A stretch of DNA of 32,000 bases, from assembly GCA_001464335.1 (NCBI GenBank), contig LNEV01000006.1, positions 200,933-232,932 of the forward strand, in the 5' to 3' direction. This DNA is from Rhizobiales bacterium Ga0077545. Lineage in GTDB: Bacteria > Pseudomonadota > Alphaproteobacteria > Rhizobiales > Methylopilaceae. Position numbers and translations under genes: made by a program. Positions 20,468 through 23,598 of the stretch are shown piece by piece; within the stretch, counting starts at the first letter, position 1, and each line of letters begins with the position of its first letter. Under the pieces are notes generated by a model. The model had not been told where the DNA came from. It ran no database searches and saw only the letters and a list, made by a program, of their open reading frames with translations.

Positions 20468-21094
20468 CTAGAGCCGCACCTCGATCACCGGCACGCTCGG
20501 GATCGCCCCGGCCTCGAAAGCCGCAAGATCGACTTCGAGGTAATCGGTGTCGAAGCGCACCGGCACATCGAATTGAAAGCCCGCCGTAACCTGTGCGCCC
20601 TCCTCCGGCGGCGCGGCGAAGGTCACGGCACCCGTCGCGGTGTCGACCGCATAGCCGTCCGCAATCTCGGCCCCGTCCACCGCAATGCGGATCGTCCCGG
20701 CAACGGGTTTCACGATGGGCCTCAGATAGGGATCGTCTCCCGTTCCATAGGCCTTGATGAGCTGGAATTGTGTACGTGCACCATCCCCGGTCCCGAGCGT
20801 CTGGTCGAACGGTGTCACGACCGCACCCGGCAAAGCCGAAGAATGATCGAGCCGGTCGCGCCAGCGAAAGCCGTTGAGGCGCCCGCGCCGCTCCTCGAAA
20901 AAGGTCACGACCTCGGAAAGCGCGCCAACCGTCTTGATGCCCCAGCCCGCATCCCATTTGCGGCGGGCATGGGCCCAGCGCGCATTTCGCTTTTCGCGAC
21001 CGGAGCCGAGCGTCACGATCTCCGTCCGCCGTTCCGGTCCGCCGCGCGCGCCGAGCGCGATCCCGGTCGGAAAACGCACCTCCTCGAAGCTCAT
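20468..21094 (-). CDS. GTA g12-like distal tail protein (DUF2460)
   Basis: 208 aa: MSFEEVRFPTGIALGARGGPERRTEIVTLGSGREKRNARW. Trimmed from the 399-aa track ORF. TAATG overlap with the tape measure stop. Confidence 0.85.
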   Translation of the reverse strand: MSFEEVRFPTGIALGARGGPERRTEIVTLGSGREKRNARWAHARRKWDAGWGIKTVGALSEVVTFFEERRGRLNGFRWRDRLDHSSALPGAVVTPFDQTLGTGDGARTQFQLIKAYGTGDDPYLRPIVKPVAGTIRIAVDGAEIADGYAVDTATGAVTFAAPPEEGAQVTAGFQFDVPVRFDTDYLEVDLAAFEAGAIPSVPVIEVRL

Positions 21095-21660
21095 TACATT
21101 CCCCTTCGTCCACGCGCCACCGCGCGCGCCAGAGCGGCCGATACCTGCGCCTCGGATTTGCGGAAACTGTCCGCATCCGGCGTCGAAATGTTCACGGTCA
21201 CATGCGTCGAAGCTCCGCCTTCCGTGCGGACACCGAGGCGTCCGTCCCGGCCGCGCGCCAGCGGCATGATGGCTTCCGCGCCCGCCTCTCCCATCAGGCC
21301 GAGCTTGCCCTGCCCCATCGGAAAATAGGTCGGCGCGGAAACGATCCCGCCCGATGCGAACGGCCGCACCACGCCACCTTTGGCGAAGGGAAGCGCCCCG
21401 CGCGTCACCGAGCCCAGCGCGCCCGAAATCAGGCTCTCCAGCGGCTGCATGGCGCTGCGCAGCGACAGATCGACCAGACGGTTGCCGAGCCCGTTCAGCA
21501 CCTCCGACAGCGAGCGCCCGCGGATCGCCGCGCCTTCCAGCGCGCCTGTCAACGAGCGGCCGAAGCCGCGCGACAGGCGGTCGAGATTGCCGAGCGAGCG
21601 CTCCAGGTCCTGTGTATTGGCGGTGAGAGGCGCGCCGCGCCCCTCGTCGAGAAACGACAT
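21094..21660 (-). CDS. GTA g11-like short tail tape measure protein
   Basis: 188 aa, helical and Gly/Leu/Ser-rich. Lies between the chaperone pair and g12. Confidence 0.75.
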   Translation of the reverse strand: MSFLDEGRGAPLTANTQDLERSLGNLDRLSRGFGRSLTGALEGAAIRGRSLSEVLNGLGNRLVDLSLRSAMQPLESLISGALGSVTRGALPFAKGGVVRPFASGGIVSAPTYFPMGQGKLGLMGEAGAEAIMPLARGRDGRLGVRTEGGASTHVTVNISTPDADSFRKSEAQVSAALARAVARGRRGM

Positions 21661-21663
21661 TGG

Positions 21664-21840
21664 TCACTCCGTTTTTACCGGGCCGTCCGGAAACTGGGCC
21701 ATCAGGTCCGCAAGTTCCGCGCGCCCGAGCGGCCCGACATGGCCGCCGGAAAGTCCCTCAAGTGCGGACGCGAGTTCGCGCGGCGTCATCGTCCAGAAAT
21801 CGTGTGGCGACAGCCGCAGCACGCCAAGCCCGGCCGCCAT
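21664..21840 (-). CDS. GTA g10.1-like tail assembly chaperone segment (ATG-initiated minimum; probably also made as a -1 frameshift extension of g10)
   Basis: Hand translation: MAAGLGVLRLSPHDFWTMTPRELASALEGLSGGHVGPLGRAELADLMAQFPDGPVKTE. The same frame stays open upstream (QGRSTIRTRQAFPWRDV) back to 21897, with no ATG/GTG/TTG in that stretch. Confidence 0.7.
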   Translation of the reverse strand: MAAGLGVLRLSPHDFWTMTPRELASALEGLSGGHVGPLGRAELADLMAQFPDGPVKTE

Positions 21841-21872
21841 GACATCGCGCCACGGAAAAGCCTGCCTGGTCC

Positions 21873-22235
21873 TTATCGTGCTGCGGCCTTGAAAGGGTCC
21901 GCCCCGGTCTCCTCATATGCGCCGCCCTCGCTTGCGCCAAAGGTCGCGGCAAGCAGCCGCGCCACGGCATCGAGATGCGCGGGAAGGCTGTCCGGCAGTG
22001 CCGCGATCTCCTCGTCGCGCATCGCGGTGCCGCCACCGCGAATCCCCGCGCCGAGAATGCGGATCGCGTCCCCGGCCGACAGCCTTCCGGTTTCGAAGCG
22101 CGCCGCGAGTGCGTTGAGATCGTCCGCGCCGAAGGCGGATTCGAGTTCGGCCAGCGCCCCGAGCGTCAGGCAGAGCGTAAAGCTGCGCCCGCCAAGCTCG
22201 GCGGAAATCTCGCCGCGATATCGGTTTGGCATCAT
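21873..22235 (-). CDS. GTA g10-like tail assembly chaperone
   Basis: 120 aa: MMPNRYRGEISAELGGRSFTLCLTLGALAELESAFG. Trimmed from the 165-aa track ORF. AGGA lies 4 nt upstream of the ATG. Confidence 0.75.
   Translation of the reverse strand: MMPNRYRGEISAELGGRSFTLCLTLGALAELESAFGADDLNALAARFETGRLSAGDAIRILGAGIRGGGTAMRDEEIAALPDSLPAHLDAVARLLAATFGASEGGAYEETGADPFKAAAR
21891..21897 (-). promoter_or_regulatory. candidate -1 programmed ribosomal frameshift slippery heptamer C CCT TTC
   Basis: In the g10 zero frame the codons are GAC CCT TTC, fitting X XXY YYZ. The site is 5 codons (KAAAR) before the g10 TAA. The -1 frame continues into g10.1. An 11-bp perfect long-range complement (21877-21887 with 21813-21823) starts 3 nt downstream. 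Confidence 0.45.
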
Positions 22236-22314
22236 GTGTTCCTGATTTTGTCGAGACAGAATCCGCTGCCGCCTGCTAGAGCTGCGCTGGAATGTGCGAG
22301 CACGGATACACAGC

Positions 22315-23094
22315 ATGACAACGAACCGCCCCGGCGCCTTGCACACCGCGCTTGCGGCCGTCAGCGACACCGTCCAGGGCTTCCGCGACGTGCCGCGTCC
22401 CTATGTGATCGTGCTTGTCGTGATGGCGCTCACCGAATTCATCGTCCTGCCCTACAGCCTCGATCCGCAGGCCGATGTCAGCCCCCTCGCCTCGTTCCTC
22501 GTGCTCGGCTTCATGCTGATTTCGACGTTCCTGCTGATCTCGCCCTATATCGGGCTCGTTCGTTATTTCCTGTACGGCGACATATCGGCGGGGTTCGAGC
22601 CGCGCGGTCCGATCCTGCGCGTCTTCGGCTGGATGCTGGCGCTCGGGTTCGCCAGCATGTTCATCTTCAGCCTTGCCGCGGTGATCGCCTTTCTCGTCGG
22701 AGGCGCTTCGCACGCCATCATCGGCACCCTGACCGCGCTGACATTCATCGCCATGTTCTGGGCCTATCTGCGCCTCAGCACCGTGCTCGTCGGGCTCGCG
22801 CTCGACGGGCCTGTGAGCATCAGCGCGCGCTTTGCCGAGACGAAGGGACATGTCTGGTTCATCCTGCGCACCTTTCTGGCCTCGCTGGTCGTGCTTGTCC
22901 CTTACATGCTGATCATGGTCGCCATTCAATTCGGCGTGTTCGGTGCGGAGAGTTTCGAGGCCGATATCGTTCCGACTCCGACCCTTGGCCAGCGTCTTCT
23001 CGATGCGCTGCTGACCGGAATTCTCGGCGCGGCCTATTTCGCCTATCTGTCCGCGCTGTATGTGCGGATATTCCGCGCCATCCCCGGGCGCTGA
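22315..23094 (+). CDS. multi-pass integral membrane protein of unknown function, opposite strand inside the GTA tail module
   Basis: 259 aa from ATG 22315 (the track ORF starts at GTG 22294). About 6 hydrophobic segments, high GC3. Convergent with g9 and divergent from g10. Confidence 0.7.
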   Translation: MTTNRPGALHTALAAVSDTVQGFRDVPRPYVIVLVVMALTEFIVLPYSLDPQADVSPLASFLVLGFMLISTFLLISPYIGLVRYFLYGDISAGFEPRGPILRVFGWMLALGFASMFIFSLAAVIAFLVGGASHAIIGTLTALTFIAMFWAYLRLSTVLVGLALDGPVSISARFAETKGHVWFILRTFLASLVVLVPYMLIMVAIQFGVFGAESFEADIVPTPTLGQRLLDALLTGILGAAYFAYLSALYVRIFRAIPGR

Positions 23095-23103
23095 CGCCGC
23101 GCG

Positions 23104-23514
23104 TCAGGCGGCCGCGAACACGACCTCTCCGGCGCTCTCCAGCGCCAGATCGAACGTCACCTCTCCCAGATGATCGCCGCGATATTCAAGCGCCGTGATC
23201 TGGAAGGGCGCTTCGATCACACCGAAATCGGGAACCACGATTTGCCAGGGGCGGATCGCACCCTCGAAGAAGAGTTCGCGCGCCATCGCATCGGAGGAGC
23301 TGTCGCGAAACACGCCCGCGCCCGAAAGGCTCGCGCGTTTCACGCCGGCGCCTTCCAGCAGTTCGCGCCAGCGGCCCGCGCTTTCGGAATGCGTCACATC
23401 CACCGCCTCGGCGTTGAGCACGACAGCGCGGGCGCGCAGGCCCGCAACACTGGTAAAGCCGCCCTCCCCGTCGCTGATCTTCAGCAGCAGGTCCTTGCCC
23501 TTCTGAGCACCCAT
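23104..23514 (-). CDS. GTA g9-like major tail protein (TP901-1 family)
   Basis: 136 aa: MGAQKGKDLLLKISDGEGGFTSVAGLRA...FQITALEYRGDHLGEVTFDLALESAG. RBS GAAGG upstream. Confidence 0.85.
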   Translation of the reverse strand: MGAQKGKDLLLKISDGEGGFTSVAGLRARAVVLNAEAVDVTHSESAGRWRELLEGAGVKRASLSGAGVFRDSSSDAMARELFFEGAIRPWQIVVPDFGVIEAPFQITALEYRGDHLGEVTFDLALESAGEVVFAAA

Positions 23515-23530: not shown

Positions 23531-23560
23531 ATAGAAAAAGGGCCCCCATTCGCGGAGGCC
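23531..23560 (-). terminator. intrinsic terminator-like hairpin between g8 and g9
   Basis: Minus strand GGCCUCC-gcgaau-GGGGGCC (7 bp including one G.U) followed by CUUUUUCUAUUU. Confidence 0.5.
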
Positions 23561-23577
23561 CAGGATTTCAGGAGAAA

Positions 23578-23598
23578 CGTCTGCGTGCATCGCAGACG
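23578..23598 (-). terminator. second hairpin between g8 and g9 (perfect 8-bp stem)
   Basis: Minus strand CGTCTGCG-atgca-CGCAGACG followed by TTTCTCC. It starts 12 nt after the g8 stop. Confidence 0.4.

What the first reader, a model, noticed from the sequence alone, without database searches (positions are those of the whole stretch)
21813..21897. Candidate G/GT-type -1 programmed frameshift joining g10 to g10.1
In the g10 frame the codons GAC CCT TTC form a perfect X XXY YYZ heptamer (C CCT TTC, 21897-21891 on the minus strand). It lies 5 codons (KAAAR) before the TAA. The -1 frame is open from here and reads PF-QGRSTIRTRQAFPWRDVMAAGLGVLRLSPHDFWTMTPRELA... The FPW segment normally forms the N-terminus of g10.1-family proteins. 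Here it has no ATG/GTG/TTG upstream after the previous in-frame TGA, so only a frameshift (or a truncating start at ATG 21840) can express it. Three nt after the heptamer, an 11-nt segment (GCCGCAGCACG) is perfectly complementary to CGTGCTGCGGC 53 nt further on (plus coordinates 21877-21887 and 21813-21823), giving a possible stimulatory stem. Frameshifted tail chaperone pairs between the major tail and tape measure genes are established for tailed phages. I cannot verify from here whether this has been shown for GTA g10/g10.1. The predicted products are 120 aa (g10) and about 190 aa (fusion).
Basis: partly seen in the sequence, partly recalled or inferred. Interest (0 to 1): 0.7.

Follow-up and report, generated by a model that had tools for sequence, protein, structure and literature searches.

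The report
Frameshifted tail chaperone in a GTA
Two small genes of a gene transfer agent (a domesticated phage-like particle) are very probably joined into one 190-residue tail-assembly chaperone when a fraction of ribosomes slip back one base, as in phage lambda G/GT; this corrects how these genes are annotated but is a familiar mechanism in a new place.

Summary
The -1 frame is open and has no ATG/GTG/TTG before the conserved FPW. An 11-nt arm (12 bp with a G·U) pairs with a segment 53 nt downstream.

Where g10.1 has no ATG upstream of FPW, a canonical in-frame heptamer is nearly always present (90 loci against 19). Where it has its own ATG, there is almost never one (4 against 46; p = 6e-20).

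The stem is conserved with compensatory changes. In 33 of 35 stem-bearing loci it starts 5-6 nt after an in-frame C CCY. A Shine-Dalgarno-like element sits 11 nt upstream, as in dnaX and IS911.

Both give the same 190-aa product. The two nearest relatives lack a canonical heptamer.

Independent initiation at ATG 21840 (58 aa, as gene callers annotate it) cannot be excluded without experiment. I found no paper describing this frameshift in GTAs. Verdict: a real, new member of a known kind.

The parts
21873..22235 (-). g10, the G-like tail assembly chaperone: 120 aa, stop TAA 21875-21873
   Evidence: PF11836 Phage_TAC_11, E = 3e-24. The AF2 model (pLDDT 79.7) is a beta-hairpin plus five helices with a disordered tail at residues 101-120. 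BFVD matches include proteins named tail assembly chaperone, TM 0.5-0.64.
21909..21914 (-). Shine-Dalgarno-like GAGGAG, 11 nt upstream of the heptamer; a candidate upstream stimulator
   Evidence: Sequence. An SD-like 4-mer starts at -21 to -12 from the heptamer in 57 of 90 heptamer loci. The rate is 12% in control windows and 3 of 46 in own-ATG loci.
21894..21900 (-). G GAC CCU: the family-conserved slip position, with a C_CC.U tetramer in the A-site codon, 6 nt before the stem
   Evidence: 33 of 35 stem-bearing loci have an in-frame NNNC CCY ending 5-6 nt before the stem. 23 are canonical (mostly A AAC CCU) and 10 are tetramer-only, including WIN, L081, L082, L062 and L153.
21891..21897 (-). 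Canonical slippery heptamer C CCU UUC, 3 nt before the stem
   Evidence: CCCTTTC is the commonest heptamer in the family, in 45 of 159 loci. C_CC.U_UU.C gives high-level frameshifting in E. coli (PMC4066793).
21812..21888 (-). Long-range stem-loop. 5' arm 21888-21877, 3' arm 21823-21812 (codons of G-V-L-R-L of g10.1), structured 53-nt loop that sequesters ATG 21840
   Evidence: RNAfold. The stem is found in 35 loci. Covariation: 5 pairs with changes on both sides, score 0.255 against 0.128 ± 0.015 in shuffles (0 of 500), and 0.03-0.12 in slid controls.
21664..21891 (-). -1 frame segment read after the slip: QGRSTIRTRQA-FPW...KTE, 75 aa plus TGA. It contains the g10.1 / rcc01693-family (T-like) domain
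   Evidence: PF09550, E = 9e-22, profile positions 1-58. TIGR02216, 76.9 bits against a cutoff of 56.1.
21850..21858 (-). FPW codons: the conserved N-terminal motif of the g10.1 domain, downstream of the g10 stop and with no start codon before it
   Evidence: FPW occurs in 139 of 159 loci. Codon use in 60 loci without an upstream ATG: TTT 41 / TTC 19; CCC 44 / CCG 12 / CCT 2 / CCA 2; TGG 60.
21838..21840 (-). Internal ATG used by gene callers as the g10.1 start (58 aa): the rival start site
   Evidence: Called this way on all 5 contigs carrying it. No GGAG, GAGG or AGGA in the 20 nt upstream. Base-paired with the FPW codons in the predicted apical hairpin.
21094..21660 (-). g11, short tape measure protein (188 aa), immediately downstream
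   Evidence: NF058675 RcGTA_tape, E = 3e-51 but below its cutoff (174 against 220 bits). PHROG tape measure families.
23104..23514 (-). g9, major tail protein, upstream. It is separated from g10 by an inserted opposite-strand ORF
   Evidence: PF06199, E = 7e-42.

Best explanation
The minus strand carries an RcGTA-type head-tail cluster. g10 and g10.1 lie between the major tail gene and the tape measure gene and form a G/GT-like tail assembly chaperone pair.

Most ribosomes translate g10 to TAA and make the 120-aa chaperone. A minority shift -1 within 21900-21891 and continue to TGA 21666-21664. They make a 190-aa fusion: g10 residues 1-115 ...GADPF, then QGRSTIRTRQAFPWRDVMAAGLGVL...KTE.

The signal has three parts:
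- an upstream SD-like GAGGAG (21914-21909) that can pair with 16S rRNA;
- the slip site, which offers two adjacent chances: CCU in the A site (G GAC CCU, 6 nt from the stem), then CCU in the P site with UUC in the A site (C CCU UUC, 3 nt from the stem). Both give the same protein;
- a 12-bp long-range stem whose 3' arm is the coding sequence for the conserved VLRL of g10.1.

By analogy with lambda G/GT, the g10 part would bind the tape measure protein. The g10.1 part would recruit the major tail protein. Neither would remain in the particle.

Shown here: the sequence elements, their conservation, their covariation, and their mutual exclusivity with an own start codon.

Inferred: that slippage occurs, its efficiency, and the roles of the two products.
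For: - All sequence elements are present.
- Across 159 non-duplicate loci the counts are: ATG upstream of FPW with heptamer 4, ATG without heptamer 46, no ATG with heptamer 90, neither 19. Fisher p = 5.7e-20. The genome set alone gives 3.9e-10 and the IMG/VR set alone 5.5e-11.
- After collapsing to 77 clusters at 80% identity, p = 2e-8.
- The background rate of in-frame heptamers is 0.0015 per codon.
- L011, L033, L066, L075 and L100 have no ATG, GTG or TTG from 25 codons upstream of FPW to the GLG motif. All five carry canonical heptamers.
- The family profiles begin at FPW.
- FPW is invariant with synonymous third-position variation where it lies after the g10 stop.
- The stem shows covariation and a fixed 5-6 nt spacing from an in-frame C CCY in 33 of 35 loci.
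- The 5' arm GCCGCAGC is conserved although it is read in different frames in different loci.
- The SD-like element is enriched upstream of the heptamers.
- C_CC.U_UU.C and the C_CC.U tetramer are frameshift-prone in E. coli (PMC4066793).
- rcc01692 and rcc01693 are not among the proteins found in RcGTA particles (PMC5026251).
Against: - There is no experimental evidence.
- The two nearest relatives, L081 and L082 (87% and 84% g10 identity), have GAC CCT CAC: only the C_CC.U tetramer, no canonical heptamer.
- The window keeps ATG 21840, which all gene callers use, so free g10.1 could be made as well or instead.
- About 30% of related clusters express g10.1 from its own ATG overlapping the g10 stop. 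Covalent fusion is therefore not obligatory in the family.
- The g10.1 structure model has low confidence (pLDDT 59.8).
- g10 has no match among solved structures.
- The loci are phylogenetically related, so the p-values overstate independence.
Confidence: 0.72

Rival explanations
1. There is no programmed frameshift in this window. g10.1 is made only as a free 58-aa protein from ATG 21840, possibly by re-initiation of ribosomes that terminated at TAA 33 nt upstream. The heptamer is fortuitous, and the FPWRDV stretch is conserved for RNA-level reasons.
For: - The ATG is present and is used by gene callers on every contig.
- The nearest relative L082 also has it. L081 has TTG at that position.
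- Many database proteins of 52-59 aa start there.
- 50 of 159 relatives make a free-standing g10.1 from an own start.
- FPW codons pair with the ATG region in the predicted hairpin, so some RNA-level constraint exists.
Against: - There is no SD-like sequence upstream of the ATG, and the ATG is base-paired.
- A protein started there lacks positions 1-6 of PF09550.
- FPW is invariant at the protein level with synonymous codon variation in 60 loci lacking an upstream ATG.
- The residue at this position is I, L, V or Q in 35 of 159 loci, 19 of them with no upstream ATG either.
- This reading does not explain the heptamer, spacer, stem and SD-like arrangement or its covariation.
Confidence: 0.17
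2. The FPW-containing g10.1 is made from a non-canonical start codon upstream of FPW, for example ATA 21876-21874 or ACG, rather than by frameshifting.
For: AAGGA (21874-21870) is an SD-like sequence near the g10 stop. Some relatives have TTG or GTG overlapping the g10 stop (TTGA, GTGA).
Against: - No ATG, GTG or TTG exists in the window between TGA 21915-21913 and FPW.
- AAGGA lies at or after the candidate ATA rather than 5-10 nt before it.
- The region is inside the 12-bp stem.
- This reading does not explain why heptamers replace start codons across the family.
Confidence: 0.04
3. The cluster is decaying. g10.1 lost its start codon and is a pseudogene remnant, and the apparent signal is a relic.
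For: One relative, L001 (Flaviflagellibacter deserti), has lost g10.1 and g11 altogether. An opposite-strand ORF interrupts g9-g10 in this clade.
Against: - g10.1 is intact and scores above the curated cutoffs.
- All flanking GTA genes are intact with strong family matches.
- The same start-less arrangement is kept in 90 loci with conserved protein sequence.
Confidence: 0.04

Closest known systems
Phage lambda G/GT and the conserved tail assembly chaperone frameshift of long-tailed phages (Levin, Hendrix & Casjens 1993; Xu, Hendrix & Duda 2004; from my own knowledge, summarised in PMC5009743)
   Same: Two overlapping ORFs lie between the major tail gene and the tape measure gene. A -1 slip near the end of the first ORF yields a short abundant product and a C-terminally extended fusion. 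Neither product is expected in the particle.
   Different: - The slip site is C CCU UUC / C_CC.U rather than G GGA AAG, although 8 relatives do use G GGA AAG.
- The window has a clear 12-bp long-range downstream stem and an upstream SD-like element.
- The T-like part is tiny (75 aa).
- The element is a host-maintained gene transfer agent, not a phage.
- In about 30% of relatives the T-like gene has its own start.
E. coli dnaX and IS911/IS3 -1 frameshift signals (PMC4066793)
   Same: The architecture has the same three parts: an SD-like sequence about 10-11 nt upstream, a slippery motif, and a stem-loop 5-6 nt downstream.
   Different: - dnaX shifts into a stop and makes a shorter protein. Here the shift extends the protein.
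- The 3' arm lies more than 50 nt downstream, inside the coding sequence of a conserved peptide motif (VLRL).
RcGTA g10 (rcc01692) and g10.1 (rcc01693) of Rhodobacter capsulatus
   Same: The families are homologous (PF11836; TIGR02216 'rcc01693 family protein') and occupy the same position in the same cluster. A 2024 paper calls them tail chaperone 1 and 2 (PMC11409702).
   Different: In the papers I could search they are treated as two separate genes and no frameshift is mentioned. I could not retrieve the R. capsulatus junction itself.

Membership tests
G/GT-type frameshifted tail assembly chaperone pair | Two ORFs located between the major tail protein gene and the tape measure gene | tested here: met
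   The order is g9 (PF06199), g10, g10.1, g11 (tape measure). Caveat: an opposite-strand ORF is inserted between g9 and g10 in this clade.
G/GT-type frameshifted tail assembly chaperone pair | The second ORF overlaps the end of the first in another frame and lacks its own initiation signals | tested here: met
   The -1 frame is open from 21912. There is no ATG, GTG or TTG before FPW. The internal ATG has no SD and is base-paired.
G/GT-type frameshifted tail assembly chaperone pair | A slippery sequence in the overlap, conserved among relatives | tested here: met
   C CCU UUC is present. Heptamers occur in 94 of 159 loci and are mutually exclusive with an own ATG. However, the heptamer type and position vary, and the nearest relatives keep only the C_CC.U tetramer.
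G/GT-type frameshifted tail assembly chaperone pair | Homology or fold of tail assembly chaperones | tested here: inconclusive
G/GT-type frameshifted tail assembly chaperone pair | Two products made at a fixed low ratio (a few per cent fusion), both needed for tail assembly and absent from particles | not testable with these tools
   This needs proteomics and genetics. The only indirect support is that rcc01692 and rcc01693 are not among the particle-associated RcGTA proteins (PMC5026251).
RcGTA-type (alphaproteobacterial) gene transfer agent head-tail cluster | The characteristic gene set and order g5...g15, including GTA-specific domains | tested here: met
   Matches: capsid PF05065, PF05521, PF11367, DUF2460 (g12), Gp84_N plus BR0599 (g13), NlpC/P60 (g14), and GTA_TIM plus Phage-tail_3 plus Rcc01698_C (g15). 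Also g9, g10 and g10.1. RcGTA_tape is below its cutoff.
RcGTA-type (alphaproteobacterial) gene transfer agent head-tail cluster | Produces particles that package host DNA, rather than being a prophage | not testable with these tools
   I did not examine the whole window for replication, lysogeny or terminase genes.

The most novel reading that the evidence does not exclude
In alphaproteobacterial GTA clusters the T-like module (g10.1) has switched repeatedly between two modes of expression. In one it is made only as a -1 frameshift fusion to g10. In the other it is a free-standing protein with its own ATG overlapping the g10 stop. If so, covalent G-T linkage is dispensable for this chaperone system, contrary to the lambda paradigm.

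Slip sites also 'hop' along the tail of g10: A AAC CCU, G GAC CCU plus C CCU UUC, G GGA AAG, and CCC UUU CCC, where the conserved PFPW codons themselves are the slippery site. The window would be a snapshot of such a hop. The ancestral A AAC CCU is degraded to G GAC CCU, and a new canonical heptamer has been created one codon downstream.
Probability: 0.45. Interest if true: 0.55.

Novelty: new member of a known kind. Interest (0 to 1): 0.4.

Why it matters
- **Annotation.** In public data g10.1 of these clusters is called as a truncated 58-aa protein from an internal ATG, or is not called at all. The 190-aa fusion is absent. GTA surveys that count g10.1 as a short separate gene therefore miss or mis-define it.
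- **Biology.** A host-maintained, non-replicating element has kept a complete recoding cassette (SD-like element, slip site, covarying stem) under purifying selection. That is evidence that the chaperone stoichiometry set by frameshifting still matters for GTA tail assembly.
- **Evolution.** Frameshifted and separately initiated versions coexist within one family. This is a natural experiment on whether G and T must be covalently linked.

A specialist would not be surprised, because tail chaperone frameshifts are textbook for phages.

Tried and rejected
- **Transcriptional slippage:** rejected. There is no homopolymer run longer than 3 at the site.
- **+1 or -2 shift:** the +1 frame is open but does not encode g10.1.
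- **Known RNA family:** no Rfam match at E ≤ 1 in 21600-22000.
- **Structure of g10.1 including FPW:** pLDDT 59.8, not informative.
- **R. capsulatus junction:** not retrievable. The single genome-contig scan returned only Hyphomicrobiales-like loci, and the phage collection held only two metagenomic records, neither with a frameshift annotated.
- **Literature:** nine full-text searches and twelve papers gave no statement of a g10/g10.1 frameshift in GTAs. The Lang et al. Nat Rev Microbiol review was not held under the PMC id I recalled for it. I did not try to retrieve the Annu Rev Virol review or Xu et al. 2004.
- **A conserved downstream structure for the commonest class** (CCC TTT CCC TGG, stop overlapping ATG): folds were heterogeneous and I did not resolve one.
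- **L001:** uninformative, because g10.1 and g11 are deleted.
- **Clustering:** single-linkage at 70% identity merged almost all loci into one cluster, so only the 80% collapse is usable as a non-independence control.

Full report
**Observation.** On the minus strand g10 runs from ATG 22235 to TAA 21875-21873 (120 aa). It ends GAC CCT TTC AAG GCC GCA GCA CGA TAA. The heptamer C CCT TTC (21897-21891) fits X XXY YYZ in the g10 frame.

The -1 frame has a TGA at 21915-21913 and is then open to TGA 21666-21664. It reads GDRGGPFQGRSTIRTRQAFPWRDVMAAGLGVLRLSPHDFWTMTPRELA... with no ATG, GTG or TTG before FPW.

GCCGCAGCACG (21887-21877) is the exact complement of CGTGCTGCGGC (21823-21813), with 53 nt between the arms. 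RNAfold forms this stem, extended by a G·U pair to 12 bp. The loop is structured, and its apical hairpin pairs the FPW codons with ATG 21840. MFE is -49.5 kcal/mol and z = -2.64. The predicted products are 120 aa and 115 + 75 = 190 aa.

**Identity of the genes.**
- g10 matches PF11836 Phage_TAC_11 (E = 3e-24).
- The -1 frame peptide matches PF09550 Phage_TAC_6 over profile positions 1-58, starting at the F of FPW. The ATG-21840 version covers only positions 7-58.
- NCBIfam names the second family 'rcc01693 family protein' (TIGR02216).
- Upstream lies the major tail protein gene (PF06199). Downstream lies a 188-aa tape measure protein.
- The rest of the strand carries the RcGTA-type set: capsid, head completion, tail completion, DUF2460, Gp84_N/BR0599, NlpC/P60, and GTA_TIM plus Rcc01698_C.
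- The g10 model is a beta-hairpin plus five helices with a disordered C-terminal tail, which is where the slip site lies. It resembles predicted viral proteins named tail assembly chaperone but no solved structure.

**Comparative test of the frameshift.** I collected 80 loci from reference genomes, 80 from IMG/VR, and the closest relatives through their proteins. 159 non-duplicate loci could be analysed.

g10.1 lies in the -1 frame of g10 in 145 of them. That alone is weak evidence, because an ATGA start/stop overlap also gives the -1 frame. The decisive pattern is the association between heptamers and start codons:

| | canonical in-frame heptamer in the last 15 codons of g10 | no heptamer |
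|---|---|---|
| ATG upstream of FPW | 4 | 46 |
| no ATG upstream of FPW | 90 | 19 |

- Fisher p = 5.7e-20. The two collections separately give 3.9e-10 and 5.5e-11.
- After collapsing to 77 clusters at 80% identity, p = 2e-8.
- Elsewhere in g10 such heptamers occur at 16 per 10,458 codons.
- The heptamers are of several kinds: CCCTTTC 45, TTTCCCT 31, AAACCCT 22, GGGAAAG 8, and others. They sit at different distances from the stop, so this is not one inherited accident.
- In 35 loci the 'internal M' is I, L, V or Q. Five loci (L011, L033, L066, L075, L100) have no ATG, GTG or TTG anywhere from 25 codons upstream of FPW to the GLG motif, and all five have canonical heptamers.
- Where FPW lies downstream of the g10 stop and no ATG precedes it (60 loci), the amino acids are invariant while third positions vary: TTT 41 / TTC 19; CCC 44 / CCG 12 / CCT 2 / CCA 2. 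This is the signature of translated sequence.

**The stimulatory elements.** The stem is conserved in 35 loci.
- Its 3' arm is the coding sequence of (V/L/A/R/I)-L-R-L in g10.1, and its 5' arm begins GCCGCAG.
- When the codon for the variable residue changes, the 5' arm changes in step: GTG with CAC, CTG with CAG, GTC with GAC, GCG with CGC, CGC with GCG, ATT with AA.
- On an anchored alignment of 22 loci, 88.8% of cells pair and 5 of 13 pairs show changes on both sides (18 cells). The covariation score is 0.255, against 0.128 ± 0.015 in shuffles (0 of 500) and 0.03-0.12 when the partner is slid. These loci were selected for having at least 7 bp of the core helix, but the covarying positions 8-10 lie outside that core.
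- The 5' arm is read as AAA in some loci and as (G/S)RS in others, so it is conserved as RNA rather than as protein.
- In 33 of 35 loci an in-frame NNNC CCY ends exactly 5 nt (28 loci) or 6 nt (5 loci) before the stem. 23 of these are canonical heptamers and 10 have only the C_CC.Y tetramer.
- An SD-like 4-mer starts 21-12 nt upstream of the heptamer in 57 of 90 heptamer loci. The rate is 12% in control windows and 3 of 46 in own-ATG loci. In the window it is GAGGAG, 11 nt upstream.
- This three-part layout is that of dnaX and IS911 (PMC4066793). No Rfam family matches.

**The window in this frame of reference.** The window belongs to the stem-bearing group. At the family's slip position it has G GAC CCU (21900-21894, 6-nt spacer). 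This matches its nearest relatives L081 and L082, and also L062 and L153. L083-L086 have the canonical A AAC CCU there.

The relatives have CAC or CGC in place of UUC.

In E. coli, C_CC.U_UU.C is a high-level motif and C_CC.U is one of the six frameshift-prone tetramers (PMC4066793). Spacer length is known to matter (PMC3458567). A slip at either position gives the same protein, because UUC and UUU both encode Phe. I therefore place the shift within 21900-21891 and do not choose between the two positions.

**What remains open.**
- There is no experiment. The window keeps ATG 21840, which every gene caller uses, so a free 58-aa g10.1 may be made in addition or, less likely, instead. Against that start: no SD, sequestration in the hairpin, and loss of the six conserved N-terminal positions.
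- About 30% of relatives have a g10.1 with its own ATG (M-x-P-FPW...), usually in an ATGA overlap and without heptamers. The family evidently tolerates unlinked expression.
- I could not examine R. capsulatus itself.
- In the papers available to me these genes are 'conserved hypothetical proteins' or 'tail chaperone 1 and 2' (PMC5026251; PMC11409702), and no frameshift is mentioned. Reviews that are not held might mention one.

**Verdict.** It is a new member of a well-known kind, the G/GT-type chaperone frameshift, in gene transfer agents where it is not annotated. Its main values are corrected annotation and a family in which frameshifted and unlinked versions can be compared.

Noticed in passing
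window 22294-23094 (+): A 266-aa ORF on the opposite strand is inserted between g9 and g10. It has several hydrophobic stretches typical of a multi-pass membrane protein and no Pfam, NCBIfam or PHROG match. Homologues occur at the same place only in the window's clade (L081-L086, L169-L172) and in L001. In 125 of 155 related loci g9 and g10 are less than 150 nt apart. It looks like a moron-like insertion that splits the tail operon.
   Followed up: partly
L005, L024, L025, L028, L030, L031 and about 35 other loci, at the g10 stop: In the commonest class the conserved PFPW motif is itself the slippery site. CCC TTT CCC TGG reads P-F-P in both frames and gives two overlapping heptamers (C CCT TTC and T TTC CCT). 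The g10 stop overlaps the conserved ATG (TGATG). I found no common downstream structure for this class.
   Followed up: partly
L008, L012, L013, L029, L039-L041, L043, L074 and others, about 50 of 159 loci: g10.1 has its own ATG (M-x-P-FPW...) in an ATGA overlap with the g10 stop and no slippery heptamer. The same chaperone family therefore alternates between frameshift fusion and separate expression.
   Followed up: partly
L001 (Flaviflagellibacter deserti NZ_JBHSJF010000006.1), 1830-2070: g10 is followed after about 230 nt directly by g12 (DUF2460). g10.1 and the tape measure gene are missing, so this cluster is probably defective.
   Followed up: no
L032 and L042 (Kaistia), 1818-2090: The g10.1 domain lies 233-257 nt downstream of the g10 stop, and the -1 frame is open all the way from inside g10. 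This is either an unusually long linker or an insertion. There is no canonical heptamer.
   Followed up: no
window 21094-21660 (-): The tape measure protein is only 188 aa. It scores 174 bits against the 220-bit cutoff of NF058675 (RcGTA_tape) and matches only profile positions 41-218.
   Followed up: no
window 23540-23561 and 23578-23598 (-): Two terminator-like hairpins with T runs lie just upstream of the g9 (major tail) start, between g8 and g9. The scan found 3 such sites in the region against 1.4 expected.
   Followed up: no
L081 1418-1633 and L086 1839-2057: Gene callers left a gap of about 215 nt with no g10.1 called in these relatives. In L081 the internal ATG is replaced by TTG. This shows how the gene is lost from annotations.
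   Followed up: partly
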